A stretch of DNA of 64,000 bases from Anaeromyxobacteraceae bacterium (GTDB taxonomy: Bacteria; Myxococcota; Myxococcia; Myxococcales; Anaeromyxobacteraceae), in NCBI GenBank assembly GCA_035543235.1, contig DATKJV010000047.1:14298-78297 (forward strand). The letters are read 5' to 3'. The position numbers and the translations under genes were made by a program. Shown here in pieces: positions 29,725 to 50,014 of the stretch (within the stretch, counting starts at the first letter, position 1; each line of letters opens with the position of its first letter). The notes beneath the pieces were generated by a model. That model saw only the letters and a list, made by a program, of their open reading frames with translations. It had not been told where the DNA came from and searched no databases.

Positions 29725-29736
29725 GGCCGCGCCCGC

Positions 29737-30042: not shown

Positions 30043-30328
30043 GCGCGCATCTTGCCGCCGTGCGGCGCGGGCGCCAGAAAACGGCGCCGCAGCCACGCGG
30101 TGGCGCAACACCGGTCCCGACTCGCGAGCATGGAGCGCGGAGCGGTGCCGCCGGCGGGTAGGACGCGCGTCTGCCGGTCCCGGGTGCTCGTCGGGCCGAG
30201 GGCCGGCCCGCTCCCGGCTTCCCGCGCAGCCCCTCTCCCGAAAGATAAGGGTTCGGTCAGGACCCGTGACGGGAGGGCCCGCATGCTGGGACGCAAACGA
30301 CGCGCCGTGGGGCGCGAGGAGAACCGGC

Positions 30329-30985
30329 ATGCTGACAGTCGACCGGGAGCCGCTCGAGATTGCTACTCACCCCTTTCGCGAGCGAGTGAACGCGTGGTTC
30401 TTTCACGTCCTCGATGGTTACGCGCACCGCAAGTACCGGGTCGTGAAGCGGGAGATGTTCGGAGGCCTCCCTCGCACGATCCTCGAGATCGGTGCCGGGG
30501 ACGGCGCGAACTTCCGCTACCTCACACGAGGCACGCGCGTCATCGCCCTCGAGCCCAACGTGCACATGCACGGCTACCTGCGGGAGGCCGGGCGCCGGCA
30601 CGGCGTCACGGTGGACATCCGCGTCGGGCTCGCCGAACGCATTCCGCTGCCCGACGCGAGCGTCGAGGCGGTCATCTGCAGCCTCGTCCTCTGTACGGTC
30701 AAGGACCCGGAGCGGGCTCTTGCGGAGGTCCGGCGCGTCCTCCGACCGGGTGGACGCCTCTGGTGCATCGAGCACGTCGCGGCGCCGGCGGGGACCTTGC
30801 TCGCGAACGTTCAACGGTGGGTCCACCGTCCGTGGCGGTGGCTCTTCGAGGGTTGCGAGACACGCCGGGACACGGGACGGCTGCTTAGGGAGGCCGGATT
30901 CGCCTCCGTCGAGATCACGCCGTTCACGCTCCGCACGGCCTTCGTCCCCATTCGCCCGCAAATCGCGGCGGTCGCCCTTAGGTGA
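30329..30985 (+). CDS. class I SAM-dependent methyltransferase
   Basis: C-terminal 218 aa of ORF 29792..30985. Motif I 'ILEIGAGDGAN', 'VIALEPN', 'VDAVICSLVLCTV' and 'LRPGGRLWCIEH'. Confidence 0.85.
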   Translation: MLTVDREPLEIATHPFRERVNAWFFHVLDGYAHRKYRVVKREMFGGLPRTILEIGAGDGANFRYLTRGTRVIALEPNVHMHGYLREAGRRHGVTVDIRVGLAERIPLPDASVEAVICSLVLCTVKDPERALAEVRRVLRPGGRLWCIEHVAAPAGTLLANVQRWVHRPWRWLFEGCETRRDTGRLLREAGFASVEITPFTLRTAFVPIRPQIAAVALR

Positions 30986-32168: not shown

Positions 32169-32351
32169 AGTCGGCCGTGGGCCGGCTATCAACCGATGGG
32201 CCGCCGCTCGTTCGCGCGACGCGGCGTCCGGAGGGGCACGGCATGCGGTGAGGCTCGCTTCCCGCCACGAGCTCGCCCCGTCAATGTTTGATTGCGACCC
32301 GGCATCGCTCGCGGGCGAGGGGGGCGCGACCCGGATGGGCCGGTGGCCGGC

Positions 32352-35012
32352 CTAGCCCGCGATCTTCGCCATCACGTGGGGCAGGATGCCGCCAGCCCTC
32401 AGGAATTCGACCTCGACGGGGGTGTCGAGCCGGACGAGGACCGGCACCTCCTCCTGCCGGCCGTCGCGGCGCCGGACGACGAGGCGCGCCGTCGCTCGGG
32501 GGGCGAGCCGGGAGACGCCGAGGAGGTCGTAGGTCTCGGTGCCGTCGAGGCGCAGGGCCTCGGCGGAGACGCCGTCGGGGAACTGGCAGGGCAGCACCCC
32601 CATCCCGGCGAGGTTCGCCCGGTGGATGCGCTCGAAGGAGCGCGCCACGACGGCGCGCACGCCGAGCAGCGCCGTCCCCTTCGCCGCCCAGTCGCGCGAG
32701 CTGCCCGTTCCGTACTCCTGCCCGGCGAGGACCACGAGCGGGACGCCGCGCTTCTCGTACTCCACCGCCGCGTCGTAGATGGACATGCGCTCGCCCGATG
32801 GCTGCAGGGAGGTGACGCCGCCCTCCACGCCCGGCACCATGAGGTTCCGGATGCGGACGTTCGCGAAGGTGCCGCGGACCATGACCCGGTCGTTCCCGCG
32901 CCGCGACCCGTAGCTGTTGAAGTCCGCCGGGGCGACGCCCAGCGAGACGAGGTACTGGCCGGCGGGCGAGCTCGGCCGGATCGACCCGGCCGGGCTGATG
33001 TGGTCGGTCGTGACCGAGTCCCCGAAGATGGCGAGGGCGCGCGCACCGGTCACGTCGCTCGGCGGCCGCGGGGGCGTCATGAAATAGGGCGGCTCCTGGA
33101 CGTAGGTGGACTTCGGGTCCCAGCGGTAGACGAGCCCCTCGGCCGAGCGCATCTCGTTCCACTGCGGGTTCTGGTCGAACCGCTCGTAGTTCTTGCGGTA
33201 CTCCTCGGGGTCCCGGGCCGTGGACAGGAGCGAGGCCACCTCCGCCGGCGAGGGCCACAGGTCGCGGAGGTAGACGTCCCTCCCGTCGCGGTCGCGGCCG
33301 AGCGGCTCGCGCGTGATGTCCTTCGCCACCGTGCCGGCGAGCGCGAAGGCCACGACCAGCGGGGGGCTCATGAGGAAGTTCGCCTTGACGCTCCCGTGGA
33401 TGCGGGCCTCGAAGTTCCGGTTGCCCGAGAGCACGCTGGCGACGACGAGGTCGTTCTCGGTCACGAGCCGCTCGAGGTCGGGGTCGAGAGGTCCCGAGTT
33501 GCCGATGCAGGTCGTGCACCCGTAGCCCACCACGTCGAAGCCGAGCGCGTCGAGGTGGCGCAGGAGCCCCGTCCGCTCGAGGTAGCGAGTGACGACCCGG
33601 CTCCCCGGCGCGAGCGACGTCTTCACCGTGGGCGGCGGCCGCATGCCCCGCTCCGCCGCCTTCCGGGCGAGGAGGCCGGCCGCGAGCATCACCGCGGGGT
33701 TGGAGGTGTTGGTGCACGAGGTGATCGCCGCGATCACCACGTCGCCATGGCCCGCGTCCACGGCACCCCGGCGCTTGCGCACCCCGAGCTCCGCCGCCGG
33801 CTTCCCGTAGCCCGTCGGGTCGGTGCGGGAGAAGAGCTCCGCGAAACGCCCGGACAGCGCCGAGAGGGGGATGCGGTCCTGCGGTCGCTTGGGGCCGGCC
33901 ACGGCCGGCTCCACCCGCGCGAGGTCGAGGTCGACCACCTCGCTGTAGTCGCACTCGTCGCGCCGGGGGATGCCGAGCGTCCCCTGGGCCGAGAGATAGG
34001 CGCGCACGGCCTCCACCTGCTCGGCGGGGCGCCCGGTGTCCCGCAGGTAGCGGAGCGTCTCGTCGTCCGGCGGGAAGAATCCGATCGTCGCCCCGTACTC
34101 CGGGGCCATGTTGGCGATCGTGGCGCGCTCCGCGGCCGGCAGGCTCGAGGCGCCCTCTCCGTGGAACTCGACGAACTTGCCCACGACCTTGTGGCGGCGC
34201 AGCAGCTCGGTCACCGCCAAGACGACGTCCGTCCCCGTCGACCCCTCGGGCAGCCGGCCGTGGACGTGGACGCCCACGACGTCCGGCGTGAGGAAGGACG
34301 CGGGCTGGCCGAGCATGGCCGCCTCGGCCTCGATCCCGCCCACGCCCCAGCCGACGACGCCGATGCCGTTCACCATCGTCGTGTGGGAGTCGGTCCCGAG
34401 CAGCGTGTCGTAGAGGAAGAGGCCGTCGCGCTCTGTCGCCACGGTGGCGAGGAACTCGAGGTTCACCTGGTGGCAGATGCCGATGCCCGGCGGGACGATG
34501 CGCAGCCGCTCGAAGGCCTGCGTGCCCCACTTCAGGAAGGCATAGCGCTCCCGGTTGCGCTCGAACTCCTTCTGCATGTTCTCGCGAAGCGCCGCCGGGG
34601 TTCCCCAGGCGTCCACCTGGACGGAGTGGTCGACGACGAGGTCCACCGGGACGAGCGGCTCGACGAGCTTCGGGTCCTTTCCCAGGCGCGCCACCGCCGC
34701 CCGCATGGCAGCGAGGTCGACGAGCAGCGGCACGCCCGTGAAGTCCTGCAGGAGCACGCGCGAGACGACGAACGGGATCTCGGCGGACCGCTCCGCCGAC
34801 GGGCGCCAGGACGCGAGGGCGCGGACGTCCTCCTCGCGCACGCGGTGGCCGTCGAGGTTGCGGACGAGGGACTCGAGCACGATGCGGAGCGAGACCGGGA
34901 GCCGCGAGATGCGCCCGAAGCCCTTGGCCTCGAGCGCCGGGAGCGAATGGAATCGGGCCGTACGCCCCGCGCCGGTGGAGAAGGTGGCGAGCACGCCGAG
35001 CGCGTCTGTCAT
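32352..35012 (-). CDS. acnA: aconitate hydratase AcnA
   Basis: 886-aa ORF with '[11 protein letters not shown]', '[10 protein letters not shown]', '[10 protein letters not shown]' and '[10 protein letters not shown]'. Confidence 0.95.
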
Positions 35013-36296: not shown

Positions 36297-37778
36297 ATGG
36301 TCCCGTCGGAGCTCTACCGGTCGTCCCTCGGCCTGCTCACGGACTTCTACGAGCTCACCATGGCCTACGCCGCATGGAAGGGCGGGATCGCCGGGCGGGA
36401 GGCGGTGTTCCACCTCGCCTTCCGGAAGAACCCGTTCGAGGGCGGCTATGCGATCGCGGCGGGTCTCGAGCACGCGGTCGACTACGTCCGCCACTGCCGC
36501 TTCGCGCCCGACGACGTCGCCTTCCTCGCCGCGCAGCGGGGCAACGACGGACGGCCGCTCTTCGAGGCCGAGTTCCTCGACTGGCTCGCCGCGCTCCGCC
36601 TCGACGTCGACGTGGACGCGGTGCCGGAGGGGACGGCGGTCTTCCCGTACGAGCCGATGCTGCGCGTGCGGGGGCCGGTCGTCCCCTGCATGCTGCTCGA
36701 GACGCCGCTGCTCAACATCGTGAACTTCCAGACGCTCGTCGCCACCAAGGCGGCGCGGGTCGCCCTCGCCGCGCGCGGCGAGCCGGTGATCGAGTTCGGG
36801 CTGCGCCGCGCCCAGGGGATCGACGGGGCGCTGTCGGCGAGCCGGGCCTCGTTCGTCGGCGGGTGCGCCGCCACCTCCAACGTGCTCGCGGGCAAGCTCT
36901 ACGGCATCCCCGTGAAGGGGACCCACGCCCACAGCTGGGTGATGCTCTTCGACGACGAGCTCGAGGCGTTCCTCACCTACGCGCGGGCCATGCCGGCGAA
37001 CTGCATCCTCCTCGTCGACACCTACAACTCGCTCGAGGGGGTTCGCCGGGCGATCGAGGTGGGGAAGTGGCTGAAGGAGCGGGGGCACCGGCTCGTCGGC
37101 GTCCGGCTCGACTCCGGCGACCTCGCCTGGCTCTCCGTCCAGGCGCGCCGGCTCCTCGACTCCGCCGGCCTGACGGACACCGCGGTCATGGCGTCGAACG
37201 AGCTCGACGAGTCGATCGTGCAGGCGCTCAAGGACCAGGAGGCCGCCATCACCGTCTGGGGCGTGGGCACGCGCCTCGTCTCCGCCTGGGGAGAGCCCGC
37301 GCTCGGGGGCGTCTACAAGCTGTCGGCGGTGCGCAGCGGCCCGGGCGCGCCGTGGAGCTACCGCGTGAAGCTCTCCGAGCAGGCTGCGAAGACCACCATC
37401 CCCGGGATCCTGCAGATCCGGCGCTACGAGCACCCCGACGGCTTCCTCGCCGACGTGATCTACGACGTGGAGAGTGGCCTCCCCGCGGCCCCGGAGATGA
37501 TCGACCCTCTCGACCTGACGCGACGGCGCGTGATCCCCGCCGGCACGCCCGGGGAGGACCTCCTCGTCCCCGTGCTCCGGCGCGGGCAGCCCGTCTGGAA
37601 GAGCCCCTCGCTCGAGGCGATGCGCGAGCGGGCCCGGTCGCAGCTCGCCCGGCTGCACGCCGGGGTGAAGAGGCTCGTCCACCCGCACCAGTACCCCGTG
37701 GGCCTGGAGAGGAGCCTCTCGGAGATCCGCACCCGACTCATCCTGGAGGCGCGCGGGGTCGCCGCGCGACCCGCGTGA
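36297..37778 (+). CDS. pncB: nicotinate phosphoribosyltransferase
   Basis: Inner ATG ([28 protein letters not shown]...) of ORF 36228..37778. 'FGLRRAQG', 'GTHAHSWVM' and 'GVRLDSGDL'. Confidence 0.9.
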
Positions 37779-39981: not shown

Positions 39982-40812
39982 TCACGGGGGGCTCGGCTCG
40001 ACGATCCCCGTGCCGGCGACGCGCAGTTCCCCGCCCGCGATCCGCCCGAGGAGCCGGAGGATCCCGTCCATGAACGTGATGGGGTGGGGCGGGCAGCCCG
40101 GCACGAAGAGGTCGACGGGGATCTCGGGAAGGCCCGGGAGGCCGTTCGCCTGCGGGGGGCTGTCGCGGAAGATGCCGCCCGAGAGCGCGCAGGCCCCGAC
40201 CGCGACAACGATGCGCGGCGCCGGCGTGGCTTCCCAGGTCTTGAGCGTGGCGAGCCGCATGTTCTCCGAGACCGGGCCCGTCACCACGATGCCGTCTGCG
40301 TGGCGGGGCGAGGCGACGAACTGGACGCCGAAGCGGGAGAGGTCGAACTGGATGTTCCCGGACGCGTTCAGCTCCGCCTCGCATCCGTTGCACCCGGCGG
40401 CGGAGATCTGGCGAAGCCGGAGCGCCCGGCCCAGCACCTTCCGCACCTGCTCGTCGAGCGCCCGGGCGAGCGTCGGTGCGTCGCCCGAGACCACGAGCTC
40501 CTCCCGGGTCCGGGCCGCGAGCCGGTAGTCCCTCGTGAAGCGGATGGCGCCGTCGGGGCAGGCCTGCTCGCAGGCGGGGCAGAAGAGGCAGCGGCCGGTG
40601 TCGAGCCGCATGGACGGCTGCCCGGGGTCGAAGATGGCCTCGGTCGGGCAGGCGTCGGCGCAGGCGTGGCAGCCGTCCCGGCAGCGCGCCGGGTCGATGG
40701 CCGGCCGGCCTCGGAAGCGCTCCGGAAACCGCGCCGGTCCGTCGGGGTAGGCGACCGTCTGCGGGCCGAAGCGCGCCCGGAAGCGGACGATCTTCACGAT
40801 GTCGTCGATCAC
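39982..40812 (-). CDS. fused 2x[4Fe-4S] ferredoxin (HycF/HyfH-like) + NuoB/HycG/HyfI-like small subunit
   Basis: GTG start (VIDDIVKIV...) overlaps the upstream TGA (GTGA). 'CRDGCHACADACP' and 'CLFCPACEQACP' clusters. NuoB-like 'ISAAGCNGCEAE', 'ASPRHADGIVVTGPV', 'VAVGACALSGG' and 'VPGCPP'. Confidence 0.85.
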   Translation of the reverse strand: MIDDIVKIVRFRARFGPQTVAYPDGPARFPERFRGRPAIDPARCRDGCHACADACPTEAIFDPGQPSMRLDTGRCLFCPACEQACPDGAIRFTRDYRLAARTREELVVSGDAPTLARALDEQVRKVLGRALRLRQISAAGCNGCEAELNASGNIQFDLSRFGVQFVASPRHADGIVVTGPVSENMRLATLKTWEATPAPRIVVAVGACALSGGIFRDSPPQANGLPGLPEIPVDLFVPGCPPHPITFMDGILRLLGRIAGGELRVAGTGIVEPSPP

Positions 40813-42329
40813 AGGTCGTGCCCGCAGTACGAGAGGTTGAAGCTCTTGTTGCACAGGGGGAAGTCGGAGATCTGCTCCCCGCGCAATGCGAGGGCGAGGC
40901 CCATCCAGTTGTGGAAGGACGGGTCCTTGAGCTTGTAGCGTGCGAAGCGGCCGTCCTCGCCGGTCGAGACGGCGTGGGTGATCTCGCCGCGCCACCCCTC
41001 CATGAGCGAGACGACGAAGCGGCCCGGGGCGGGTGCCGCGCAGGAGGTCCGAACCGGGCCCGCCGGGAGCGCGCGGAGCTCGCGGACGACGAACTCGGCG
41101 CTGCGCTCCGACTCGAGGAGGCGCACCCAGGCTCGGGCGAAGACGTCCCCCGTCTCGCCGGTGACGGTCGGGACGTGGACGAAGCGGAAGACGCCGGTCG
41201 CGTGGTCGCGGCGGACGTCCCGGGAGACGCCACACGCGCGCGCCGCCGGGCCGACGAGCCCGAGCTGGCGGCAGGCGTCGCGGGACACGACGCCGGTCCC
41301 GTCCGTCCGGTTGCGGGCCGAGGGCGAGTCGAAGAAGAGGCGCGCCGCCCCCTCCACGGACTCCCATGCCTTCGAGACCTTGTCGGCGAGGCGGGCGGCC
41401 GCGCCCGCGTCGAGGTCGAAGCGCACGCCGCCGGGCACGACCAGCCCTCGCCCGAAGCGGTTGCCGCAGACCTCCGCGAGCGCGTTCAGGAAGTCGGCGC
41501 GGAGCGCGCCGCAGTAGGAGGCGGTCGGGAGGAAGCCGACGTCGCCGGCGAGCATGCCGATGTCGCCGACGTGGTTCGCGAGCCGCTCGAGCTCGAGGGC
41601 GATCCCCCGGAGCACCGCCGCCCGGGGGGGGATCTGGCAGCCGGCGAGGGCCTCCACCGCGTTCGCGTGCGCGAGCGCGTGGCCGATCACGGTGTCCCCG
41701 GCCACGGACTCGAGCAGCGCGACGGTGCGGCGGTCGGGTCCGCGCGCGAGCATGAGCTCGACGCCGCGGTGCTGGTAGCCGAGCACGATCTCGAGGAAGA
41801 AGACGTGCTCCCCGTGGCACTGGAACCGGAAGTGGCCGGGCTCGATGATGCCCGCGTGCACGGGCCCGACCGCCACCTCGTGCACCTCCTCGCCCTCGAC
41901 CCGGAAGAAGGGGTAGTCGCCGGGGATGTTCCGGGCGGGGGTCCCGCGCCCGAAGGGGTCGATGCCGGGGACGTGCGGCGGCTCGAAGCGCACCGGCTTG
42001 AGCCACGGGTGGCCCTCCGGTCGAACGCCGAACTGCTCGTACACCTCCCGCTCGAAGAGCTGCAGGGAGGGGCACTCCGGGGTGAGCGACGGGTAGGAGG
42101 CACCGACGCGGGTGGAGAGGACGCCCAGCTTTCCCTGGGCGTCGTCGGCGAGCACGGCCGTCACCACGACGCCGCCGTCCGCGTCCCGGCGGCCGTAGAA
42201 GGCGCTCGCCCGGCCGCCGGCGGCGACGACGTCGGAGACGATCTGCTGGAAGTCCTCGAGCGCGACGACCGGGACGAGCGCGGCGTCCACCGCCTCGGCG
42301 TTCCAGACCTGCAGCACGCGGGACGGCAT
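40809..42329 (-). CDS. HycE/HyfG-like (NuoC-NuoD fusion) large subunit lacking the [NiFe] cysteine ligands
   Basis: ATG (MPSRVLQVWNAEAV...) inside ORF 40809..43709. NuoC-like 'LQLFEREVYEQFGVRPEGHPWLKP'. NuoD/large-subunit 'GPVHAGIIEPGHFRFQCHGEHV', 'LGYQHRGVE' and 'ELERLANHVGD'. The L1 position reads 'ESVAGDTVIGH' and the C-terminus reads 'SFNLSYCGHDL'-stop. Confidence 0.9.
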   Translation of the reverse strand: MPSRVLQVWNAEAVDAALVPVVALEDFQQIVSDVVAAGGRASAFYGRRDADGGVVVTAVLADDAQGKLGVLSTRVGASYPSLTPECPSLQLFEREVYEQFGVRPEGHPWLKPVRFEPPHVPGIDPFGRGTPARNIPGDYPFFRVEGEEVHEVAVGPVHAGIIEPGHFRFQCHGEHVFFLEIVLGYQHRGVELMLARGPDRRTVALLESVAGDTVIGHALAHANAVEALAGCQIPPRAAVLRGIALELERLANHVGDIGMLAGDVGFLPTASYCGALRADFLNALAEVCGNRFGRGLVVPGGVRFDLDAGAAARLADKVSKAWESVEGAARLFFDSPSARNRTDGTGVVSRDACRQLGLVGPAARACGVSRDVRRDHATGVFRFVHVPTVTGETGDVFARAWVRLLESERSAEFVVRELRALPAGPVRTSCAAPAPGRFVVSLMEGWRGEITHAVSTGEDGRFARYKLKDPSFHNWMGLALALRGEQISDFPLCNKSFNLSYCGHDL

Positions 42330-42331
42330 GG

Positions 42332-43765
42332 CTAGCTCCCCCCCACGAGCGCGGCAGCGGAACGGAACAGCGCCGAGAGCGGCCCGGGCAGCCAGAGGCC
42401 GAGCGCGAGGACGGAGGCGAGGAGCGCGAGCGGCGGCCCGGCGGTGAGCCAGCTGTCGCGGAAGTCGGGCCGGTCCGGGGCACCCCGGTCGTCTCCCTGG
42501 ACCACCCGGAGGACCGTCGCGCCCATGCCGATGAAGACCACCGCGAGGAAGAGCAGGAAGAGGCCGCCCACGACGTATCGTCCCTTTCCGAGCGCGCCGT
42601 TCAGGATCAGGAACTCGCTCCAGAACGGGCTGAACGGGGGCGTGCCGGTCACGGCGAGGAACCCGGCCAGGAAGAGGGGGCCCGACAGCGGCAGCCGCCG
42701 GCTCGCCCCGCGGACCTCGTCGACCCGCTTCGAGCCGTAGGCCCGGTGGATGTTGCCGGCGGTGAGGAACAGGACCCCCTTCGCGAGCCCGTTGTTGAGC
42801 ACGTGGTAGAAGGCGCCGAAGACGGCGCCCCCGCCCAGGCCGAGCCCGATGGCGAGGATGCCCATGTGCTCGACGCTCGAGTACGCGAGCATGCGCTTGA
42901 AGTCCCGCTGCCCGGCCATGAACACGGCGGCGAGCGCCATGGAGAGGAGCCCGAGGCCGATGAGCGCGTCGCAGGCGAATGCGCCCTCGCCGGCGGCCCG
43001 GGCCACCTGGTAGACGCGGAAGACGGACAGGAAGGCGATGTTCGTCACGCCGCCCGCGAGCAGCGCGCCGAGGATCCCGGGAGCCTCCCCGTAGGCGTCG
43101 GGCTTCCACGAGTGCAGCGGGGCGAGCCCCATCTTCGTCCCGTAGCCGACGAGGAGGAAGACGAAGGCCGCCCGCACCCATGGCTTCGAGAGCTCGGGCC
43201 CCGACTCCACGAGCGCGCCGAGCAAGAGGGAGCGGGGTCCGCCCGGCCCGGCCCCCGAGAGGGCGACGAAGAAGGTGCCGAGGAGCGCGAGCGCGATCCC
43301 GAGCGAGGAGACGAGCAGGTACTTCCAGGCCGCCTCGAGCGAGCGGGCGTTCCGGTTGAAGTAGATGAGGGGCGCCGTCGCGAGCGTCGTGATCTCGATC
43401 GCCACCCAGAGGATGCCGAGGTGCTGGGCGAGCCCCACCACGGTCATGGCCGCGAGGAGCCCGAGGAGGCCGGAGACGAAGACCCGGTTGTCCTTCTCGG
43501 CGCGGCGTCGCAGGTAGCCCTGGGCGTACACGGCGGTCGCGAGGAAGAGGGCGCTCGCCGTCGTGAGGACGACCTTCCCGGCGGCGTCGAGGAAGAGCAG
43601 GCCCTCGAGGAGCGGCGGCTCCGGCCGGAGCCAGAGGAGAGCCATGCACGTGGCGTGGGCGAGGGCGCCCGCGAGGAGGAGGTACGGCCGGCTCCTCTGA
43701 GCGGGCCACGCGAAGGCCGCAGCGGCGAGGGCGAGCGGGACGAGGACGAGGAGCGCGGCGACCAC
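42332..43765 (-). CDS. HyfF/NuoN-like antiporter-type membrane subunit
   Basis: GTG start (VVAALLVLVPL...) 2 nt after the upstream TAG, inside ORF 42332..44584. 'GYGTKMGLAPLHSWKPDAYGEAP', 'RMLAYSSVEHMG' and about 14 TM segments. Confidence 0.8.
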   Translation of the reverse strand: MVAALLVLVPLALAAAAFAWPAQRSRPYLLLAGALAHATCMALLWLRPEPPLLEGLLFLDAAGKVVLTTASALFLATAVYAQGYLRRRAEKDNRVFVSGLLGLLAAMTVVGLAQHLGILWVAIEITTLATAPLIYFNRNARSLEAAWKYLLVSSLGIALALLGTFFVALSGAGPGGPRSLLLGALVESGPELSKPWVRAAFVFLLVGYGTKMGLAPLHSWKPDAYGEAPGILGALLAGGVTNIAFLSVFRVYQVARAAGEGAFACDALIGLGLLSMALAAVFMAGQRDFKRMLAYSSVEHMGILAIGLGLGGGAVFGAFYHVLNNGLAKGVLFLTAGNIHRAYGSKRVDEVRGASRRLPLSGPLFLAGFLAVTGTPPFSPFWSEFLILNGALGKGRYVVGGLFLLFLAVVFIGMGATVLRVVQGDDRGAPDRPDFRDSWLTAGPPLALLASVLALGLWLPGPLSALFRSAAALVGGS

Positions 43766-43767
43766 GG

Positions 43768-44415
43768 CTAGTCCTTGAGCGACGCCATGGCGTCGGTGTC
43801 GAGGGAGGCGAACTCCCGGTTGATCTGGAAGATGACGATGCCCATCACGAAGACCGCCGCGAGGAGGTCGAGGAGCACGCCGGCCTCCACCATCACCGGC
43901 ATGAAGTCGGTGAGCAGGAGGCCGAAGACGAACACCCCGTTCTCGAGAACGAGGAAGCCGAGCACCTGGGTGACGGCCTTCCTCCGGCTGACGACGAGGA
44001 GCAGCCCCGTCCAGACCGTCGCGAGCGCCGTCGGGACGAGGAAGGTGTGCATCTCGGGGGTGGGGAGCGGGAGCCCCCGCGAGAACGCGAAGGCGAGCGC
44101 GACGCCCGCGCCCCCGAGCAGCAGAGAGGGGACGTATCCGACGATGGGCTCCACCTCCCGCCGGATGGCTGCCTCGCGAATGGCCCGGAACATCAGCCAG
44201 GGGATGAAGAAGGCCTTGATGACGAGCGCCCCCCCGGCGACGAGCAGCACGTGCCCGATGTCGTGGGACGGAGATCCGAGCATGAGCGCGAGCGCGGAGA
44301 GGAGGGCTCCCTGGAGCGCGACCGCCCGGATCGCCGCTCCCAGCCGGCTCGAGGCGAGCACGAACAGGTTCACGACGACCACCAGGATGAAGGTCATGTC
44401 GATCCAGGAGGCCAT
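43768..44415 (-). CDS. HyfE-like membrane subunit
   Basis: ATG (MASWIDMTFILVVVVNLFVL...) inside ORF 43768..45153. 215 aa and about 7 TM segments. 'GFLVLENGVFVFGL' is typical of HyfE/NuoK-like subunits. Confidence 0.8.
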   Translation of the reverse strand: MASWIDMTFILVVVVNLFVLASSRLGAAIRAVALQGALLSALALMLGSPSHDIGHVLLVAGGALVIKAFFIPWLMFRAIREAAIRREVEPIVGYVPSLLLGGAGVALAFAFSRGLPLPTPEMHTFLVPTALATVWTGLLLVVSRRKAVTQVLGFLVLENGVFVFGLLLTDFMPVMVEAGVLLDLLAAVFVMGIVIFQINREFASLDTDAMASLKD

Positions 44416-44417
44416 GG

Positions 44418-45332
44418 TCACCGGAGCAGGAGGACGAGGGCGAAGGTGGAAAGCACGGAGGCGCCGACGAGCATCTGGGGCACGCGGGTGAGGCGGAGCC
44501 GCGCCATGACGCTCTCCACGGCCCCGACGAGCACGGCGAAGCCGAGGAGGCCGGCCAGGAACGCGGCCTCGGCCGCGACGCCACCCGCCCCGGGAAGGCC
44601 GCCGAAGGCGAGGCGCGCGACGACAGCGGCGAAGAGGAAGAGCTTCATCGAGGCCCCGTAGAGGATCATGGCGAAGTCGGGGCCGGAGTGGTCGAGCACC
44701 ATCACCTCGTGAATCATGGTGAGCTCGAGGTGCGTGTTCGGGTCGTCCACGGGGATGCGGGCGTTCTCGGCGAGAGCGACGACGAACAGCGCGATCGCGG
44801 AGAGCAGGAGCGCCGGGGCCGCATCGTGCCAGGCCGGGCCGAGCGCGGGACCCAGCATGCCGGAGAGCGAGAGGGTCCCGGTCGCGCGGGCGAGCACCAC
44901 GAAGCAGAGGAAGAGCGCCGGCTCCGCGATGCTCGCGAAGGAAACCTCGCGCGCCGCTCCCATGCCCTCGAAGGAGGACCCGGTGTCGAGCGCCGCGAGC
45001 GCCGTGAAGAAGCGCCCCAGGGCCAGCAGATACGCGAAGAGCAGGAAGTCGCCGCGAAAGCCCACGGCGGCGCGGCCGCCGGCGATCGGCAGGAGGAGCC
45101 CCGCGAGGAAGACCGCCGCGAGCCCCACCGCCGGGCCTGCCCGGAACACCCACGTCGTCGTCCGGCTGTAGACGGCGCCCTTTCGCACGAGCTTCCCGAG
45201 GTCGTAGTACGGCTGCAGGAGCGGAGGGCCTCGCCTGCCCGCGAAGAGGGCCTTCACCCGATTCACCACGCCGAGCAGGAGCGGCGGGGCGAGGAGCAGG
45301 AGACCGAGATGGAAGAGGACGTGGAGGACCAT
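44418..45332 (-). CDS. HycD/HyfC/NuoH-like membrane subunit
   Basis: ATG (MVLHVLFHLGLLLLAPPLLLGVVNRVKALFAGRRGPPLLQPYYDL...) inside ORF 44418..45857. 'LDTGSSFEGMGAAREV', 'DDPNTHLELTMIHEVMVLDHSGPDF' and 'ESVMARLRL' align by eye along E. coli HycD. Confidence 0.9.
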   Translation of the reverse strand: MVLHVLFHLGLLLLAPPLLLGVVNRVKALFAGRRGPPLLQPYYDLGKLVRKGAVYSRTTTWVFRAGPAVGLAAVFLAGLLLPIAGGRAAVGFRGDFLLFAYLLALGRFFTALAALDTGSSFEGMGAAREVSFASIAEPALFLCFVVLARATGTLSLSGMLGPALGPAWHDAAPALLLSAIALFVVALAENARIPVDDPNTHLELTMIHEVMVLDHSGPDFAMILYGASMKLFLFAAVVARLAFGGLPGAGGVAAEAAFLAGLLGFAVLVGAVESVMARLRLTRVPQMLVGASVLSTFALVLLLR

Positions 45333-45333: not shown

Positions 45334-47313
45334 TCACCACCAGACGAAACGCCAGGCGAGCAGCGCGACGAGCGCCGCCACGACGAGGACGGCGTAGAAG
45401 TGGACGCGCCCCGGAAAGAGGCCCCGCACCTTCCCCGCCGCCGCCTCGCAGGCGTGGGCGGCGGGGACGATGGCGCGGTCGAGGACGACGTCCGGCACCT
45501 CCGTCGCGAACCGGGCCGAGCGCGGGAAGAGGCCGCGCGGCTGTGCGAGTTCGACCTTCGCGAGGAGCACGAACCGGAAGCCGTCGACGAGGAACTGCGC
45601 GAAGGAGGACCCCGTGTACTCCATCCGCGCCGTGGGAGCGGCGAAGCCGCAGCCCCAGGTCTCGGAGGCCGCGGCGCTTCGCACGAGCCGCGCCCGGATC
45701 CAGGCGAGCGCGCCGGCGGCGAGGAGCAGCGCCGCGGCGACGACGCCCACCCGCCGCGCCGCGCCCGCGGCGTCCGCGGCGGCCGCGTGGGCGGCCGGGA
45801 GCCCTGCCCAGTCGAAGGCCGCCCGGGCGATGGCCGGCAGCGCGAGGGAGGGTCCAAGGCCGATGGCCAGGCAGGCCGCGGCGAGGAGCGCCATCGGGAG
45901 CAGCATCGCCGCGGGGGACTCGTGGGCGCCCGTGGCCTCCGCCGTGCGCGGGTTCCCGAGAAAGGCCGTCCCGTGGACCTTGGCGAAGCATGCGGCGGCG
46001 AGGCCGCCGATGAAGGCGAGGATCGGGGCCGCGAGCGCGACGTAGGCGAGCCGGTCGCCGCGGGGCAGGGCGAGGCCGGCGAGGGAACCCAGCGCGACGA
46101 GCCACTCCGAGACGAAGCCGTTCAGGGGAGGCAGCCCGCTGATGGCCGCCGCTCCCACGAGGAAGAAGAGCGCCGTGAAGGGCATCGGGCGCGCGAGGCC
46201 TCCCATGCGCTCGATGTCTCGCGTGCCGGTGGCGCGCTGGACCGACCCGGCCCCGAAGAAAAGGAGGGACTTGAAGAGCGCGTGGTTCACGACGTGCAGG
46301 AGCGCTCCCCCGAGGCCCAGGGTCACGAGAACGGCGTCGCCGCGCGCCCGGCCCACCAGCGCGACGCCGGCCCCCATGGCGATGATCCCGATGTTCTCGA
46401 CGGAGTGGTAGGCGAGAAGACGCTTCACGTCGTGCTGGGCCAGCGCGATCGCGACCCCCAGGACCCCCGAGACCGCGCCGAGGGCGAGGAGCACGAGGCC
46501 CCAGGACGCGGGCGGGGCGTCGAAGAACCCCGTGGTGCGCAGCAGCCCGTAGATCCCGGTCTTGAGAAGCACCCCCGACATGAGCGCCGACACGTGGCTG
46601 GGGGCGGCCGCGTGCGCGCCGGGGAGCCAGAAGTGCAGGGGGACGAGGCCGGCCTTGAGGCCGAAGGCCACGAGCGCCAGCGCGTACAGCCCCCCGCCCC
46701 CCGCCGCGGGCAGCCCCCGCCAGTCGGCGAAGTCGAAGGAGCCGCGGGCGCCCCCCACCGCGCAGAAGAGAGCGAAGAGCGCGAAGGTCCCGACGTGCGC
46801 GGCGGCGAGGTACACCCATCCAGCGCGGAGCGCCTCCGGCCTCTGATCCTCGGTGCGCACGAGAGCGAAGCCGGCGACCGCCATGACCTCCCAGGCGGCC
46901 AGGAAGAGGAGCGCGTTGTCGGCGACCACGACGAGGGCCATTGCGCCGGTGATGACGCCGAAGAAGAGCTGTAGCCGCACGGCCTTCCAGCCGAGCTTCG
47001 CCTGGGGCCAGTAGGCGAGTCCGTAGACGGATCCGAGCGCGGGAAGCGCGAGGACCGGGACGAGGAACACGGCGCCCAGCGCATCCAGGCGAAGCGCGAA
47101 GGAGGCGAGCGGCTCGTGCCACGGGAGCCGGATGGCGAAGCCGCCCGCTCCCGCGAGCACGCGTGCGCTCGCGGCGCCGCCGAGCGCCGCCGCCGCGCAC
47201 ATCGCGGCACACGAGAGCCTCTGGCCGAGCACCGGTCGGCCCCGGAGGACGAGGCCGAAGAGGCCGCTCCCGGACGCGAGCGCCATCGCCCAGACCACGA
47301 GCGCGGGGGTCAC
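45334..47313 (-). CDS. HyfB/HycC/NuoL-like antiporter-type membrane subunit (copy 2)
   Basis: GTG start (VTPALVVWAMALAS...) overlaps the upstream TGA (GTGA), inside ORF 45334..49398. 'FLAAWEVMAV', 'GLKAGLVPLHFWLPGAHAAAPSHVSALMSGVLLKTGIYG', 'KRLLAYHSVENIG' and the C-terminal 'ETWGCGF..PTARMEYT' extension. Confidence 0.85.
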   Translation of the reverse strand: MTPALVVWAMALASGSGLFGLVLRGRPVLGQRLSCAAMCAAAALGGAASARVLAGAGGFAIRLPWHEPLASFALRLDALGAVFLVPVLALPALGSVYGLAYWPQAKLGWKAVRLQLFFGVITGAMALVVVADNALLFLAAWEVMAVAGFALVRTEDQRPEALRAGWVYLAAAHVGTFALFALFCAVGGARGSFDFADWRGLPAAGGGGLYALALVAFGLKAGLVPLHFWLPGAHAAAPSHVSALMSGVLLKTGIYGLLRTTGFFDAPPASWGLVLLALGAVSGVLGVAIALAQHDVKRLLAYHSVENIGIIAMGAGVALVGRARGDAVLVTLGLGGALLHVVNHALFKSLLFFGAGSVQRATGTRDIERMGGLARPMPFTALFFLVGAAAISGLPPLNGFVSEWLVALGSLAGLALPRGDRLAYVALAAPILAFIGGLAAACFAKVHGTAFLGNPRTAEATGAHESPAAMLLPMALLAAACLAIGLGPSLALPAIARAAFDWAGLPAAHAAAADAAGAARRVGVVAAALLLAAGALAWIRARLVRSAAASETWGCGFAAPTARMEYTGSSFAQFLVDGFRFVLLAKVELAQPRGLFPRSARFATEVPDVVLDRAIVPAAHACEAAAGKVRGLFPGRVHFYAVLVVAALVALLAWRFVWW

Positions 47314-49304
47314 CGCATCCTCCCGGCGATCACCATGGCCGCGAGGAGCGCGAGGAGCGTCGCGAGCGTGTAGAGCAGCTGGAGGTTGAGCCTCCCCGCC
47401 TGGAAGCGTCGCAGCCGGCTCATCCGGTCCGCGAGCCCCCGGAAGAGAGGGTCGAAGAGCCGCGTCCGCGCCGGATCCTGGGGCTCGGTGCGGAACGAGC
47501 TCGTTCGCGGGAAGAGCCCGTGCGGAGGGGCGAAGCGCGTCCGGGGTTGCAGGGACCGGGGGACGAGGCCCGCGAGCAGGAACTGTGCGTACGACGAGGC
47601 CGTGTACTCCATGCGCGGCGTGGGCTCGCCGAAGCCGCAGCCCCAGGTCTCGGCGCGGCGCACATTGCGGGAGCGGACGGCGCGGCGCGCCACCGCGGCC
47701 GCCGCGAGCGCGGCCGCGAGAAGCGCGAGCCCCATCCCGCGCAGCGGCCCCGCCGCGGAGGCGGCGACGTCCGCGAGGGCGGCGGTGGGCGCCCCGGCCA
47801 CCTGGGCCGCCGCCGGCGCGACCAGGCGAAGGACCGGTCCGGGGAGGACTCCGACGAGAACGCAGGCCGCGGCGAGCGCGAGGAGCGGGCCGAAGAGGAG
47901 CGCGGACGGCTCGCGAGCCGCGGCGGCCGCCCCGGTGCGCGGTGCACCGAGGAGCGACATGCCCGCGAGCCGGGTGAAGGCGATCGCCGCGAGCGCGCCG
48001 ACGAGCGCCAGGACGGAGGCGCCGAGGAGGGCGACGAGCGAGCCGACGCCCTGGCTCGCGGTCGCGCCGTCGAAGAGGCCGAGGTAGAGGAGCCACTCGG
48101 AGGCGAAGCCCGCGAGCGGAGGCATCGCCGAGAGCGCGGCGGCCCCGACGAGGAACGCGGTGCCCGTGAGCGGCAGGCGGGCGAGGAGCCCTCCCATCCG
48201 CTCCACGTCCCGGGTGTGGACCTCGTGAGCCAGGGCGCCCCCGCCCATGAAGGCGAGCGACTTCATCAGGGCGTGCGTCCAGACGTGGAAGAGCGCGCCT
48301 CCGAAGCCCAGGGCGGCGACGCGCGGCTCGCCCGCGGCACTGCCGATCACGCCCAGCCCGAGGCCGAGGAAGACGATGCCTACGTTCTCCACGCTCGAGT
48401 ACGCGAGCGCTCGCTTCACGTCCGCCTGGCCGAGCGCGAGCGTGATCGCGACGAGCGCGCTCGCGAGCCCGACGGCGGCGAGGACGAGCCCGAATCCCAC
48501 GGGGGCGGCGGGCACGAAGCCGAGCAGGCGGAGCACGCCGTAGACCCCGGTCTTGATCATGACCGCGGAGAGCAGCGCGGACACGTGGCTCGGCGCCGCC
48601 GGGTGGGCCTCCGGCAGCCAGACGTGGAGGGGCACGAGGCCCGCCTTGGTGCCGAAGCCGACCAGCCCGAGCGCGAAGAGGAGCGCGGGCGCCCGCACGC
48701 CGTCGCGCAGCGCCTCGAAGCGGCCGAAGTCGAACCCGCCGGCGCCCGAGGCGAGGAGCACGAAGAGCGCGAAGAGGAAGGCCGTCCCGAGGTGAGACGC
48801 CACGAGGAACGTGTAGCCCGCGCTGCGGACGTCGGCGTGCTCGTCCTCGAAGGTGACGAGCGCGAACGTGGCGACGGTCATGACCTCCCAGGCCACGAGG
48901 AAGAGCACCCCGTCCGCCGCCGCGAAGACGAGCGCGATAGACGCGACGAGCAGGTCGAAGAAGGCGGCGAATGCCGCGAGCGATCGCCGGGACGCGACGC
49001 GGCCCATGTAGCCCGCGCCGTAGATGGAGGCGGGAACCGCGAGTGCGAAGAGCGGGGTGAGAAAGAAGGCCGCGAGCGGGTCGAGCCGCAGGTGGAAGGC
49101 GCCGGCCGGCACCCCCCAGGCGAGCGAGAGCTCGGCGGCCGGGGCGCCGAGGAGGACCGGGACCACGCCGGCGAGCCCCGTGGCCCCGCCCAGGCAGGCG
49201 GCGCCCGAGGAGATCGCCAGCGCGAGGCGCCGCCGCCTGCCGGCAGCGAGCGCCGCGATGGCGCCCGCGAGCAGGATGCCGATGGCGCCGAGGAGCAGCC
49301 TCAA
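47310..49304 (-). CDS. HyfB/HycC/NuoL-like antiporter-type membrane subunit (copy 1)
   Basis: Inside ORF 47310..50066. There is no ATG near the N-terminus. A TTG (LRLLLGAIGILLAG...) overlapping the upstream TGA (TTGA) is the most plausible start. 'FLVAWEVMTV', 'GTKAGLVPLHVWLPEAHPAAPSHVSALLSAVMIKTGVYG', 'KRALAYSSVENVG' and 'ETWGCGFGEPTPRMEYT'. Confidence 0.8.
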   Translation of the reverse strand: MRLLLGAIGILLAGAIAALAAGRRRRLALAISSGAACLGGATGLAGVVPVLLGAPAAELSLAWGVPAGAFHLRLDPLAAFFLTPLFALAVPASIYGAGYMGRVASRRSLAAFAAFFDLLVASIALVFAAADGVLFLVAWEVMTVATFALVTFEDEHADVRSAGYTFLVASHLGTAFLFALFVLLASGAGGFDFGRFEALRDGVRAPALLFALGLVGFGTKAGLVPLHVWLPEAHPAAPSHVSALLSAVMIKTGVYGVLRLLGFVPAAPVGFGLVLAAVGLASALVAITLALGQADVKRALAYSSVENVGIVFLGLGLGVIGSAAGEPRVAALGFGGALFHVWTHALMKSLAFMGGGALAHEVHTRDVERMGGLLARLPLTGTAFLVGAAALSAMPPLAGFASEWLLYLGLFDGATASQGVGSLVALLGASVLALVGALAAIAFTRLAGMSLLGAPRTGAAAAAREPSALLFGPLLALAAACVLVGVLPGPVLRLVAPAAAQVAGAPTAALADVAASAAGPLRGMGLALLAAALAAAAVARRAVRSRNVRRAETWGCGFGEPTPRMEYTASSYAQFLLAGLVPRSLQPRTRFAPPHGLFPRTSSFRTEPQDPARTRLFDPLFRGLADRMSRLRRFQAGRLNLQLLYTLATLLALLAAMVIAGRMR

Positions 49305-50014
49305 GCGCCGTCTCTCCTCGCAAGTCCCGCGGCCCGCTGCTCGGCGAGCGTCCGCTCGATGCGCTCGATCTCCGCGAGGATGTCTTCGGACGGTGCACGC
49401 TCGCGGAGCTTCTCCACCAATCCCGGCTCCCGCAGCGCCGTCGCGAGGGAGGCGAGCAGGTGGAGGTGGGCGCGCGTCGACGGGCTGATGAGGAGGCAGA
49501 GGGTGTGGACCGGCAGCCCCTCCGCTTCCCCGAAGTCGAAGGGCTCGTCGAGCAGGAAGACCGCGACCGCCGGCCGGTCGACGCGCAGGACGATCGGGTC
49601 GCGGGGGTGGGGGATGGCGATCCCGTTGCCGAGGGAGGTCGAGCCGAGCCGCTCCCGCGCGAGAAGCATCCCGAGGAGGAAGCCCCGGTCGAATTCGGGT
49701 GGCGCGGGGGCGCGCTCCACCACTTGCCGTAGGACCTCGGTCTTGTCGGTTCCGCGGATGCCGCGGTGGATGCCGCCCGCGCGAACCGCCTCGGAGAGCG
49801 GCGGAAGCCCCTTGGGGACGAGGCCCGGATCCTCCAAGATCTCGGCGGACACCGGGATCTTGTGCTGTGCGGCCCACTCGAGGAGCTCCACGCGGTTGAA
49901 GCGGTACCGGTCGTCGACCTCCTCCGCGGGGAGCTCGCCCCGCCTCACCCAACGCTCGAGCACTTGCTCGGTGACACCGAGGAGCCGGGCTGCGTCGCGA
50001 ACGGTCAGTTGCAT
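49301..50014 (-). CDS. HTH (excisionase/MerR-like) + PTS EIIA(Ntr/fructose)-type domain regulator
   Basis: ATG (MQLTVRDAARLLGVTEQVLERWVRRGELPA...) inside ORF 49301..51757; 237 aa. EIIA_2 signature 'RERLGSTSLGNGIAIPHPRD', which includes the phosphorylatable His, plus 'LPVHTLCLLISP...HLHLLASLA'. Confidence 0.85.
   Translation of the reverse strand: MQLTVRDAARLLGVTEQVLERWVRRGELPAEEVDDRYRFNRVELLEWAAQHKIPVSAEILEDPGLVPKGLPPLSEAVRAGGIHRGIRGTDKTEVLRQVVERAPAPPEFDRGFLLGMLLARERLGSTSLGNGIAIPHPRDPIVLRVDRPAVAVFLLDEPFDFGEAEGLPVHTLCLLISPSTRAHLHLLASLATALREPGLVEKLRERAPSEDILAEIERIERTLAEQRAAGLARRDGA

What the first reader, a model, noticed from the sequence alone, without database searches (positions are those of the whole stretch)
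40809..42329. Large subunit: both CxxC nickel-iron ligand boxes are replaced (ESVAGDTVIGH; SFNLSYCGHDL-stop)
Fold landmarks of group 4 large subunits and NuoD are all present ('GPVHAGIIEPGHFRF', 'LGYQHRGVE', 'ELERLANHVGD'). At the position of the N-terminal R-x-C-G-x-C-x3-H box the sequence is E-S-V-A-G-D-T-V-I-G-H, so both Cys are gone (Ala and Thr). At the C-terminal D-P-C-x2-C-x2-R/H box it is N-L-S-Y-C-G-H-D-L. The protein then ends with no cleavable extension. The 506 residues contain ten Cys but no CxxC pair. The retained His and the single displaced Cys could line a new substrate or quinone-type pocket, as happened in the evolution of complex I NuoD.
Basis: seen in the sequence. Interest (0 to 1): 0.7.

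Follow-up and report, generated by a model that had tools for sequence, protein, structure and literature searches.

The report
Cysteine-less hydrogenase-like subunit (Ehr complex)
This gene encodes the hydrogenase-like large subunit of an "Ehr" membrane complex, which has lost all four nickel-iron-binding cysteines; the family is widespread and already described, but its real function is still unknown.

Summary
The gene lies on the minus strand (40809-42329, 506 aa). Alignment with E. coli HycE/HyfG shows all four NiFe cysteine ligands replaced (Ala210, Thr213, Ser500, Gly503). The protein has ten Cys, no CxxC, and ends without an extension.

It is not new. This is the large subunit of an Ehr (energy-converting-hydrogenase-related) complex, described in Geobacter (EhrL) and related to rhizobial HyqG. 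The window holds the whole operon: an HTH-EIIA regulator, two HyfB-like subunits, HycD-like, HyfE-like and HyfF-like subunits, the large subunit, and a fused ferredoxin+NuoB small subunit. The same gene order occurs in Geobacterales, Planctomycetota, Verrucomicrobiota, Acidobacteriota, Gemmatimonadota and others, with at least 597 genome hits.

The gene is under purifying selection (dN/dS 0.16). All 12 Fe-S cysteines and the pump residues of three antiporter-like subunits are kept.

The conserved ones are Gly211-Asp212-Ser/Thr213, Asn494-Lys495-Ser496, Tyr501, Gly503, Asp505 and Leu506. The complex I quinone ligands (Tyr, His) are absent.

Most likely this is a redox-driven ion pump that is not a hydrogenase. 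Its donor is probably ferredoxin; its acceptor is unknown, possibly quinone. Interest is low to moderate.

The parts
40809..42329 (-). EhrL/HyqG-type large subunit: a NuoC-like N-domain fused to a HycE/NuoD-like domain, with all four NiFe Cys ligands replaced
   Evidence: Translation; Pfam; PDB HycE E 1e-47; alignment A2; AlphaFold/Foldseek; dN/dS 0.156
41679..41711 (-). Former L1 (RxCGxCxxxH) box, now ESVAGDTVIGH. Gly211 is invariant, Asp212 is at least 90% conserved and residue 213 is Ser/Thr
40809..40844 (-). Former L2 (DPCxxCxxR) box, now SFNLSYCGHDL plus the stop codon, with no C-terminal extension. The TGA overlaps the GTG start of the small subunit (GTGA)
39982..40812 (-). EhrS: a HyfH/NuoI-like 2x[4Fe-4S] ferredoxin domain fused to a NuoB/HyfI-like small subunit. 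All 12 cluster Cys are present
   Evidence: Pfam Fer4_7 + Oxidored_q6; NCBIfam; each Cys conserved in 57-64 of 67 sequences; alignment with HyfH/HycF/NuoI
42332..43765 (-). EhrD/HyfF-like antiporter-like subunit (TM5 Glu, TM7 Lys and TM12 Lys kept)
43768..44421 (-). EhrC/HyfE-like small membrane subunit
   Evidence: NCBIfam hydrogenase 4 membrane subunit E 4e-24
44418..45332 (-). EhrB: NuoH-fold membrane subunit, closest to HycD
   Evidence: Pfam NADHdh; PDB HycD 7z0s_D E 8e-26 versus NdhA 1e-7
45334..47313 (-). EhrA-2/HyfB-like antiporter-like subunit
   Evidence: NCBIfam hydrogenase 4 subunit B E 9e-167; key residues
47310..49304 (-). EhrA-1/HyfB-like antiporter-like subunit (44% identical to EhrA-2)
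49301..50014 (-). First gene of the operon: an HTH_17 + PTS EIIA-2 (PtsN-like) regulator. Its stop overlaps the start of EhrA-1
   Evidence: Pfam; NCBIfam PtsN; conserved position and His motif across phyla

Best explanation
The gene encodes the large subunit (EhrL type) of an Ehr complex. Ehr is a membrane-bound descendant of Hyf/group-4 [NiFe] hydrogenases that has lost the Cys-ligated NiFe centre and so is not a conventional hydrogenase.

Shown here: all four ligand Cys are replaced by a conserved new set (Ala/Ser-Gly-Asp-Ser/Thr ... Ser-Tyr-x-Gly-x-Asp-Leu-end). The gene is under purifying selection. It sits in a tightly coupled eight-gene operon that keeps three [4Fe-4S] sites (two in a HyfH-like domain fused to the NuoB-like subunit), a HycD-like subunit, a HyfE-like subunit and three antiporter-like subunits with intact Glu/Lys pump residues.

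Inferred: electrons enter from a soluble low-potential donor, most likely reduced ferredoxin docking on the fused ferredoxin domain. They pass through the three clusters to the rebuilt pocket at the large-subunit/HycD-like interface and reduce a non-proton acceptor. Menaquinone is the leading candidate, and the reaction may run in reverse. Electron transfer is coupled to H+/Na+ translocation, as in ferredoxin-dependent NDH-1 or Fpo-like complexes. The operon's own HTH-EIIA regulator suggests control by the nitrogen-PTS phosphorylation state.
For: Loss of ligands. Family-wide conservation of the replacement residues, including invariant G211, N494, K495, S496, Y501, G503, D505 and L506, with D212 and E163 at 90% or more. 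Purifying selection: dN/dS is 0.156 for both the large and small subunits, against 0.218 for the neighbouring aconitase. Fe-S Cys are kept. Pump residues are kept in all three antiporter-like subunits. The operon order regulator-B(-B)-C-E-F-G-HI recurs in the large majority of the 80 fetched loci that have enough flank, across more than 8 phyla; 597 of 600 genome stretches were confirmed. The 7-gene structural set matches the G. sulfurreducens Ehr cluster GSU0739-45 (EhrA-1, C, L, S and others). PMC7894505 reports all its subunits at high abundance in the formate condition. Geobacterales loci are 53-54% identical with the same order (L034, L035). The literature states that Ehr lacks the NiFe site and is not a hydrogenase. 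No Fdh, CooS, NuoEFG or hyp genes lie in the 64 kb window, which fits a soluble donor such as ferredoxin.
Against: The acceptor is not identified. The Tyr and His that bind the quinone headgroup in complex I are absent. The NuoH-fold subunit is much closer to HycD than to quinone-reducing NuoH/NdhA. So a complex I-style quinone site is not supported by sequence. PMC6349859 reports Ehr complexes in Riflemargulisbacteria whose genomes lack an identifiable quinone biosynthesis pathway. Genetic work on the related rhizobial Hyq complex attributes H2 uptake and evolution to it (PMC2650096, PMC3357923). No Ehr has been purified, assayed or solved: no closer structure appears in the PDB, and no such paper is in the library.
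Confidence: 0.65

Rival explanations
1. It is still an H2-converting enzyme that uses a non-canonical, cysteine-independent catalytic site. This has been claimed for the rhizobial Hyq 'endo-hydrogenase', an H2:quinone oxidoreductase.
For: In A. caulinodans, hyq deletion changes diazotrophic growth and H2 evolution or uptake (PMC2650096, PMC3357923). The rhizobial HyqG orthologue is 37% identical to this protein and has the same Cys-less boxes. The hydrogenase-type Glu163 of the beta1-beta2 loop is retained.
Against: No known hydrogenase chemistry works without Cys-ligated metals, and the Hyq authors themselves call a NiFe site 'uncertain, if not unlikely'. The phenotypes could be indirect, for example through electron supply to nitrogenase. 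HydDB and later authors classify Ehr as non-hydrogenases. No hyp or protease genes lie nearby. Of the three Cys conserved in HyqG, only one (Cys493) is present here.
Confidence: 0.05
2. It works exactly like complex I NuoD: the former NiFe pocket is a quinone headgroup site of the complex I type.
For: It has the same fold and the same position next to the NuoB-type cluster.
Against: The NuoCD Tyr aligns with the invariant Gly211, and the loop His aligns with Ile162. The membrane partner is HycD-like, not NuoH-like. The family branches with group-4 hydrogenases, not with NuoD (PMC10284858).
Confidence: 0.1
3. It reduces a soluble or hydrophilic acceptor at the rebuilt pocket, in the way that Mbx/MBS of Pyrococcus evolved from a hydrogenase to use a different acceptor.
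For: The conserved replacement residues are polar (Asp212, Ser/Thr213, Ser500, Asn494, Lys495, Ser496, Tyr501, Asp505). Mbx is cited as a precedent for a hydrogenase-related complex with another acceptor (PMC6349859).
Against: No candidate acceptor pathway is encoded next to the operon in any of the loci inspected. The family is spread across aerobes and anaerobes with very different metabolisms.
Confidence: 0.12
4. It is a decaying relic or a redox-independent Mrp-type antiporter whose hydrogenase-like arm is vestigial. This is the view taken for G. sulfurreducens KN400 in PMC13194489.
For: PMC13194489 calls Ehr 'nonfunctional' and expects relaxed selection.
Against: dN/dS is 0.16, lower than for aconitase. 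The 12 Fe-S Cys and the replacement residues are conserved across phyla. There are no frameshifts or internal stops. Subunits are expressed in G. sulfurreducens and respond to the electron donor.
Confidence: 0.04

Closest known systems
Ehr (Ech/energy-converting hydrogenase-related) complex of Geobacter sulfurreducens, GSU0739-45 (EhrA-1, A-2, B, C, D, L, S)
   Same: It has seven structural genes of the same types in the same order. The large subunit lacks the NiFe Cys motifs. Geobacterales large subunits are 53-54% identical to this one and carry the same upstream HTH-EIIA gene (L034, L035).
   Different: The host is different (Anaeromyxobacteraceae). The G. sulfurreducens protein sequences themselves were not in hand, so orthology is inferred through Geomonas and other Geobacter relatives.
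Hyq 'endo-hydrogenase' of Azorhizobium caulinodans and rhizobia (hyqRBCEFGI)
   Same: The B-C-E-F-G-I gene order is the same. The large subunit is a NuoC::NuoD fusion of about 504 aa lacking both CxxC motifs, with an 'SGDS' box and a '...CNKSFN.SY.GHDL' end. It is 37% identical over 459 aa.
   Different: The rhizobial small subunit (177 aa) lacks the fused 2x[4Fe-4S] ferredoxin domain. HyqR is a short HTH protein unrelated to the HTH-EIIA regulator here. There is one HyfB-like gene instead of two. Two of the three Cys conserved in Hyq are Ala and Leu here.
E. coli hydrogenase 4 / hydrogenase 3 (HyfG, HycE; structure 7Z0S)
   Same: It is the best sequence and fold match (E 1e-47; TM 0.86). The subunit repertoire is the same: HyfB, C, E, F, G, H and I.
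   Different: All four NiFe Cys are gone. There is no C-terminal extension, no HyfA/HycB, and no hyp or protease genes nearby. HyfH and HyfI are fused.
Respiratory complex I NuoCD/Nqo4
   Same: It shares the NuoC-NuoD fusion fold, the absence of a NiFe site, the adjacent NuoB-type cluster and three antiporter-like pumps.
   Different: The quinone-ligating Tyr and His are absent. There is no NuoEFG module. The membrane-arm subunits are of the Hyf type.

Membership tests
Group 4 [NiFe] hydrogenase large subunit (Hyc/Hyf/Ech type) | N-terminal RxCGxCxxxH motif supplying two Ni/Fe Cys ligands | tested here: not met
   It aligns as SVAGDTVIGH; the Cys positions are Ala210 and Thr213.
Group 4 [NiFe] hydrogenase large subunit (Hyc/Hyf/Ech type) | C-terminal DPCxxCxxR/H motif supplying two Cys ligands | tested here: not met
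   It aligns as NLSYCGHDL; the Cys positions are Ser500 and Gly503.
Group 4 [NiFe] hydrogenase large subunit (Hyc/Hyf/Ech type) | Homology and fold of the large subunit, with Hyf-type partner subunits | tested here: met
   HycE E 1e-47; Foldseek TM 0.86; partner subunits.
Group 4 [NiFe] hydrogenase large subunit (Hyc/Hyf/Ech type) | H2 evolution or uptake activity and nickel content | not testable with these tools
   This needs biochemistry.
[quoted passage not shown] | Large subunit homologous to group 4 hydrogenases but lacking the NiFe-binding residues | tested here: met
   definition from PMC6349859, PMC10284858 and PMC13194489.
[quoted passage not shown] | Clustered with a NuoB-like Fe-S small subunit, a NuoH-like subunit, a HyfE-like subunit and Mrp/NuoL-like antiporter subunits | tested here: met
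   The subunit list matches EhrA-1/C/L/S as named in PMC7894505.
[quoted passage not shown] | Orthology to the Geobacter type cluster | tested here: inconclusive
   Geomonas and Geobacter loci share the order at 53-54% identity. G. sulfurreducens GSU0739-45 sequences were not compared directly.
Hyq endo-hydrogenase (rhizobial hyqRBCEFGI) | HyqG of about 504 aa, a NuoC::NuoD fusion without CxxC motifs, in B-C-E-F-G-I order | tested here: met
Hyq endo-hydrogenase (rhizobial hyqRBCEFGI) | Three family-conserved Cys (A. caulinodans Cys258, Cys491, Cys497) | tested here: not met
   Only the Cys491 equivalent (Cys493) is present. Mapped through the Rhizobium orthologue, the other two positions are Ala261 and Leu499.
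Hyq endo-hydrogenase (rhizobial hyqRBCEFGI) | Small subunit HyqI with only the N2-type cluster; HyqR-type regulator | tested here: not met
   Here the small subunit carries a fused two-cluster ferredoxin domain, and the regulator is an unrelated HTH-EIIA protein.
Complex I NuoD / 49-kDa subunit (quinone-reducing) | Conserved Tyr (Nqo4 Tyr87) and loop His (Nqo4 His38) that bind the quinone headgroup (residue roles are from my own knowledge of complex I structures) | tested here: not met
   The E. coli NuoCD Tyr aligns with Gly211 and the His aligns with Ile162.
Complex I NuoD / 49-kDa subunit (quinone-reducing) | Association with Nuo-type membrane subunits and (for NADH enzymes) the NuoEFG module | tested here: not met
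   The membrane subunits are Hyf/Hyc-type. There is no NuoEFG in the window.

The most novel reading that the evidence does not exclude
The rebuilt pocket is a genuine new catalytic site rather than a passive electron exit. The pocket comprises the invariant Gly211, Asp212, Ser/Thr213, Ser500, Tyr501 and Gly503, the C-terminal Asp505-Leu506 carboxylate end, and the retained hydrogenase-type Glu163. Its reaction could be cysteine-independent H2 turnover, as claimed genetically for rhizobial Hyq, or reduction of an unrecognised acceptor. The whole complex would be switched by a dedicated HTH-EIIA (nitrogen-PTS) regulator that is conserved with it across many phyla.
Probability: 0.1. Interest if true: 0.8.

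Novelty: already known. Interest (0 to 1): 0.22.

Why it matters
Ehr/Hyq complexes are encoded in hundreds of species across many phyla, from Geobacter and Anaeromyxobacter to Planctomycetes, Verrucomicrobia, rhizobia and Burkholderia. The Rv0082-87 locus of M. tuberculosis is also called an Ehr complex in the literature. They have been proposed as an evolutionary intermediate between hydrogenases and complex I. No one has yet shown what reaction they catalyse, so they are a real gap in bioenergetics. This finding only rediscovers the family's defining feature in one more genome and does not make the open question more testable. The useful outputs here are a corrected list of the residues that are actually conserved in the former active site, the demonstration that complex I-type quinone ligands are missing, and the conserved HTH-EIIA regulator as an experimental handle.

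Tried and rejected
1. Translating the + strand at the given coordinates gives only a GC-rich shadow ORF.
2. The first literature query on 'Ehr' was swamped by electronic-health-record papers.
3. The Marreiros 2013 BBA paper is not held, so it is cited only through papers that cite it.
4. NCBIfam gave only sub-threshold NuoD/Hyf hits and no dedicated Ehr model.
5. The cluster-member look-up of the putative HyqG representative P0246 returned no organism names. Hyq was reached instead through a Rhizobium plasmid in PLSDB.
6. The Foldseek PDB search found no Ehr-like solved structure, only HycE and NuoCD/NDUFS2. The tools expose no model coordinates, so the pocket could not be mapped in three dimensions.
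7. The pseudogene or relic hypothesis was rejected on dN/dS and conservation.
8. A donor module encoded nearby (Fdh, CooS, NuoEFG) or hyp genes was looked for and not found among the 28 flanking genes scanned. Genes upstream of window position 18126 were not scanned.
9. The FHA-GAF-cyclase upstream gene was considered as part of the system. It is conserved only in the 86%-identical relative, so it is not listed as a part.
10. The NJ tree is only a rough distance tree. It suggests that Cys-containing (probably group 4f) sequences nest beside the Cys-less radiation, but it cannot decide between single and multiple losses.
Full report
**1. The observation.** The window is 73% G+C, so long ORFs appear on both strands. 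A GC3 frame plot and translation show that the real gene at 40809-42329 is on the minus strand. It encodes 506 residues and ends in TGA.
- GPVHAGIIEPGHFRF at residues 155-169
- LGYQHRGVE at 183-191
- ELERLANHVGD at 246-256
- ESVAGDTVIGH at 207-217 (window 41679-41711)
- SFNLSYCGHDL-stop (window 40809-40844)

The protein has ten Cys and no CxxC. Pfam finds a NuoC-like (Complex1_30kDa) piece followed by Complex1_49kDa. The best solved relatives are E. coli HycE (7z0s_E, E 1e-47), Pyrococcus MbhL and Thermus Nqo4.

HMMER's residue alignment to HycE agrees with a MAFFT alignment (A2). A2 includes E. coli HycE, HyfG and NuoCD fetched from MG1655. HycE R-V-C-G-I-C-G-F-A-H lies over S-V-A-G-D-T-V-I-G-H, and D-P-C-Y-S-C-T-D-R lies over N-L-S-Y-C-G-H-D-L. 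The four ligand positions are therefore Ala210, Thr213, Ser500 and Gly503. HycE and HyfG continue for 32 more residues, whereas this protein stops.

**2. What surrounds it.** The gene is the seventh of eight co-directional, mostly overlapping genes on the minus strand:

| Window (minus strand) | Product |
|---|---|
| 49301-50014 | HTH_17 + PTS-EIIA-2 (PtsN-like) regulator |
| 47310-49304 | HyfB-like antiporter-like subunit |
| 45334-47313 | second HyfB-like antiporter-like subunit |
| 44418-45332 | NuoH-fold subunit, closest to HycD (E 8e-26 versus 1e-7 for NdhA) |
| 43768-44421 | HyfE-like subunit |
| 42332-43765 | HyfF-like antiporter-like subunit |
| 40809-42329 | large subunit |
| 39982-40812 | HyfH/NuoI-like two-cluster ferredoxin domain fused to a NuoB/HyfI-like small subunit |

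The large-subunit stop overlaps the small-subunit start (GTGA).

The small subunit keeps all 12 cluster cysteines, and each is conserved in 57-64 of 67 aligned sequences. The first cluster motif has an unusual but conserved one-residue insertion, C-x3-C-x2-C-x3-CP. All three antiporter-like subunits keep the TM5 Glu, TM7 Lys and TM12 Lys.

Pfam scans of 28 flanking genes found no formate dehydrogenase, CO dehydrogenase, NuoEFG, hyp or endopeptidase gene. Genes upstream of position 18126 were not scanned. The neighbours are central-metabolism and housekeeping genes.

**3. Relatives.**
- An identical protein lies on a 258 kb ENA contig. Homologues of 66-87% identity come from Anaeromyxobacteraceae MAGs, A. 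diazotrophicus and A. terrae.
- In these 120 homologues the boxes read S[VIL]AGDT..G[HN] and FPLCNKSFNLSY[C/A]GHDL. The 'displaced' Cys502 is as often Ala.
- An exhaustive HMMER search of 1.84 billion cluster representatives gave 921 hits below 1e-30.
- Of 104 full-length proteins among the top 150, nearly all share the Cys-less boxes. Five (P0225, P0230, P0244, P0249, P0266; 33-40% identity) keep RxCGxC...H and CY[SA]C.DR.
- An alignment of 25 diverse Cys-less members (A1) has these invariant columns in and around the former site: Gly155, Pro156, His158, Gly211, Asn494, Lys495, Ser496, Tyr501, Gly503, Asp505 and Leu506. Asp212, Glu163 and Ser500 are at 90% or more.
The best 80 come from Planctomycetota, Verrucomicrobiota, Geobacterales (for example Geomonas limicola), Acidobacteriota (Geothrix paludis), Gemmatimonadota, Spirochaetota, Actinomycetota, Omnitrophota and others.
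- BLASTP labelling of ORFs in these loci shows the order regulator - B (one or two copies) - C - E - F - G - H::I in the large majority of loci with enough flank. Every one of the 74 loci with a small subunit has the fused ferredoxin domain.
- The HTH-EIIA gene directly precedes the first B gene in 39 of 43 loci, and its EIIA motif G.G[IV]A[IV]PH is conserved.

**4. Is it alive?** A fully syntenic relative with an 86%-identical large subunit (L082) allowed Nei-Gojobori estimates. dN/dS is 0.156 for both the large and small subunits and 0.12-0.34 for the membrane subunits. The neighbouring aconitase gives 0.218 and NAPRTase 0.211. AlphaFold with A1 gives pLDDT 88.3 and pTM 0.90. The best PDB fold match is HycE (TM 0.86), followed by E. 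coli NuoCD. This is a functional protein under selection, not a decaying hydrogenase.

**5. What is known.** The literature already describes exactly this.
- HydDB is trained to exclude them (PMC5037454).
- In G. sulfurreducens the cluster is GSU0739-45, with EhrA-1 (NuoL-like), EhrC (HyfE-like), EhrL and EhrS. PMC7894505 reports high abundance of all its subunits in the formate condition.
- The M. tuberculosis Rv0082-87 'hyc' locus is also called an EHR complex (PMC6728331).
- The Ludwig laboratory described hyqRBCEFGI of Azorhizobium. [quoted passage not shown] They attributed H2 recycling and evolution to it on genetic grounds (PMC2650096, PMC3357923).

I recovered a rhizobial hyq operon from a Rhizobium plasmid. 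Its large subunit is 37% identical to the window protein, with 'TSGDSTVAY' and 'CNKSFNCSYSGHDL' boxes. Its small subunit lacks the ferredoxin domain, and its regulator is unrelated.

The window locus therefore belongs to the Geobacter-type Ehr branch. That branch has the fused H::I small subunit, the HTH-EIIA regulator and often two B genes. It is a cousin, not a member, of the rhizobial Hyq branch. A rough NJ tree places the five Cys-containing representatives beside the Cys-less radiation, with HycE and HyfG outside. This fits the published proximity to group 4f.

**6. Mechanism.**

Shown: the NiFe ligands are gone; a new, strongly conserved polar set replaces them; the three-cluster electron wire and three pump modules are intact; the operon is self-contained.

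Inferred: electrons from a soluble low-potential carrier enter at the fused ferredoxin domain and leave at the rebuilt pocket to something other than protons, coupled to ion translocation. Ferredoxin is the natural partner of NuoI/HyfH-type modules in Ech, Mbh and NDH-1; that statement rests on my own knowledge. Quinone is the obvious candidate acceptor. Three pump modules would also suit a large driving force such as ferredoxin to menaquinone, but this is a thermodynamic plausibility argument only.

The data argue against a complex I-style site. The NuoCD Tyr aligns with the invariant Gly211 and the loop His with Ile162. The membrane partner is HycD-like. Ehr complexes have also been reported in Riflemargulisbacteria without a recognisable quinone pathway. 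The acceptor therefore remains open. A soluble acceptor (the Mbx/MBS precedent) and cysteine-independent H2 chemistry (the Hyq claim) cannot be excluded from sequence alone. I rate the latter as unlikely.

**7. Verdict.** The phenomenon is already known as the defining trait of Ehr/Hyq complexes. The case is of low to moderate interest in itself, although the family's function remains a real open question.

Noticed in passing
window 49301-50014 (-); loci L001-L080: The first gene of the operon encodes an HTH_17 domain fused to a PTS EIIA-2 (PtsN-like) domain. The same gene directly precedes the Ehr genes in 39 of 43 loci across many phyla, and the EIIA phospho-His motif G.G[IV]A[IV]PH is conserved. 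This suggests control of Ehr by the nitrogen-PTS. I found no mention of it in the papers read.
   Followed up: partly
window 40645-40683 (-), small-subunit residues 44-56: The first [4Fe-4S] motif of the fused ferredoxin domain is C-x3-C-x2-C-x3-CP. That is a one-residue insertion relative to HyfH, HycF and NuoI (C-x2-C-x2-C-x3-CP), and Geomonas shares it.
   Followed up: partly
window 50080-51669 (-) and 51742-53313 (+): An FHA-GAF-adenylate/guanylate cyclase gene lies just upstream of the operon, with a divergently transcribed Ser/Thr protein kinase. The arrangement is kept in the 86%-identical relative (L082) but not in distant Ehr loci.
   Followed up: partly
L081 (Rhizobium sp. WSM1274 plasmid) 9369-9902: The rhizobial Hyq small subunit is only 177 aa and lacks the two-cluster ferredoxin domain, so that complex would carry a single Fe-S cluster. 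This makes its proposed electron path, and the published H2 phenotypes, hard to explain.
   Followed up: partly
L032 (Geobacteraceae MAG) and L058 (Verrucomicrobia MAG): These loci carry two Ehr-like clusters side by side in one locus (B-C-E-F-G-HI twice).
   Followed up: no
P0136, P0143, P0146, P0151, P0158, P0165, P0168: Some Cys-less family members keep a single Cys at the first ligand position (pattern C-S/A-S-G). They may be intermediates in the loss of the NiFe site.
   Followed up: no
window 40809-42329 (-), residues 157-160 and 504-506: The AlphaFold model is confident overall (pLDDT 88). It drops below 50 in the beta1-beta2 loop (VHAG) and the last three residues (HDL), which correspond to the ligand-site region of true [NiFe] hydrogenases, and in the 116-137 NuoC-NuoD linker.
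   Followed up: no
window 19278-35012: A run of central carbon metabolism genes lies near the operon: GTP-PEPCK (19278-21077), citrate synthase (23938-25275), formate-tetrahydrofolate ligase (26064-27764) and aconitase (32352-35012). NAPRTase (36297-37778) lies just beyond it.
   Followed up: no
window 40818-42335 (+): A 505-codon antisense ORF covers the whole large-subunit gene. It is a high-GC shadow ORF with the wrong GC3 phase, not a gene.
   Followed up: yes
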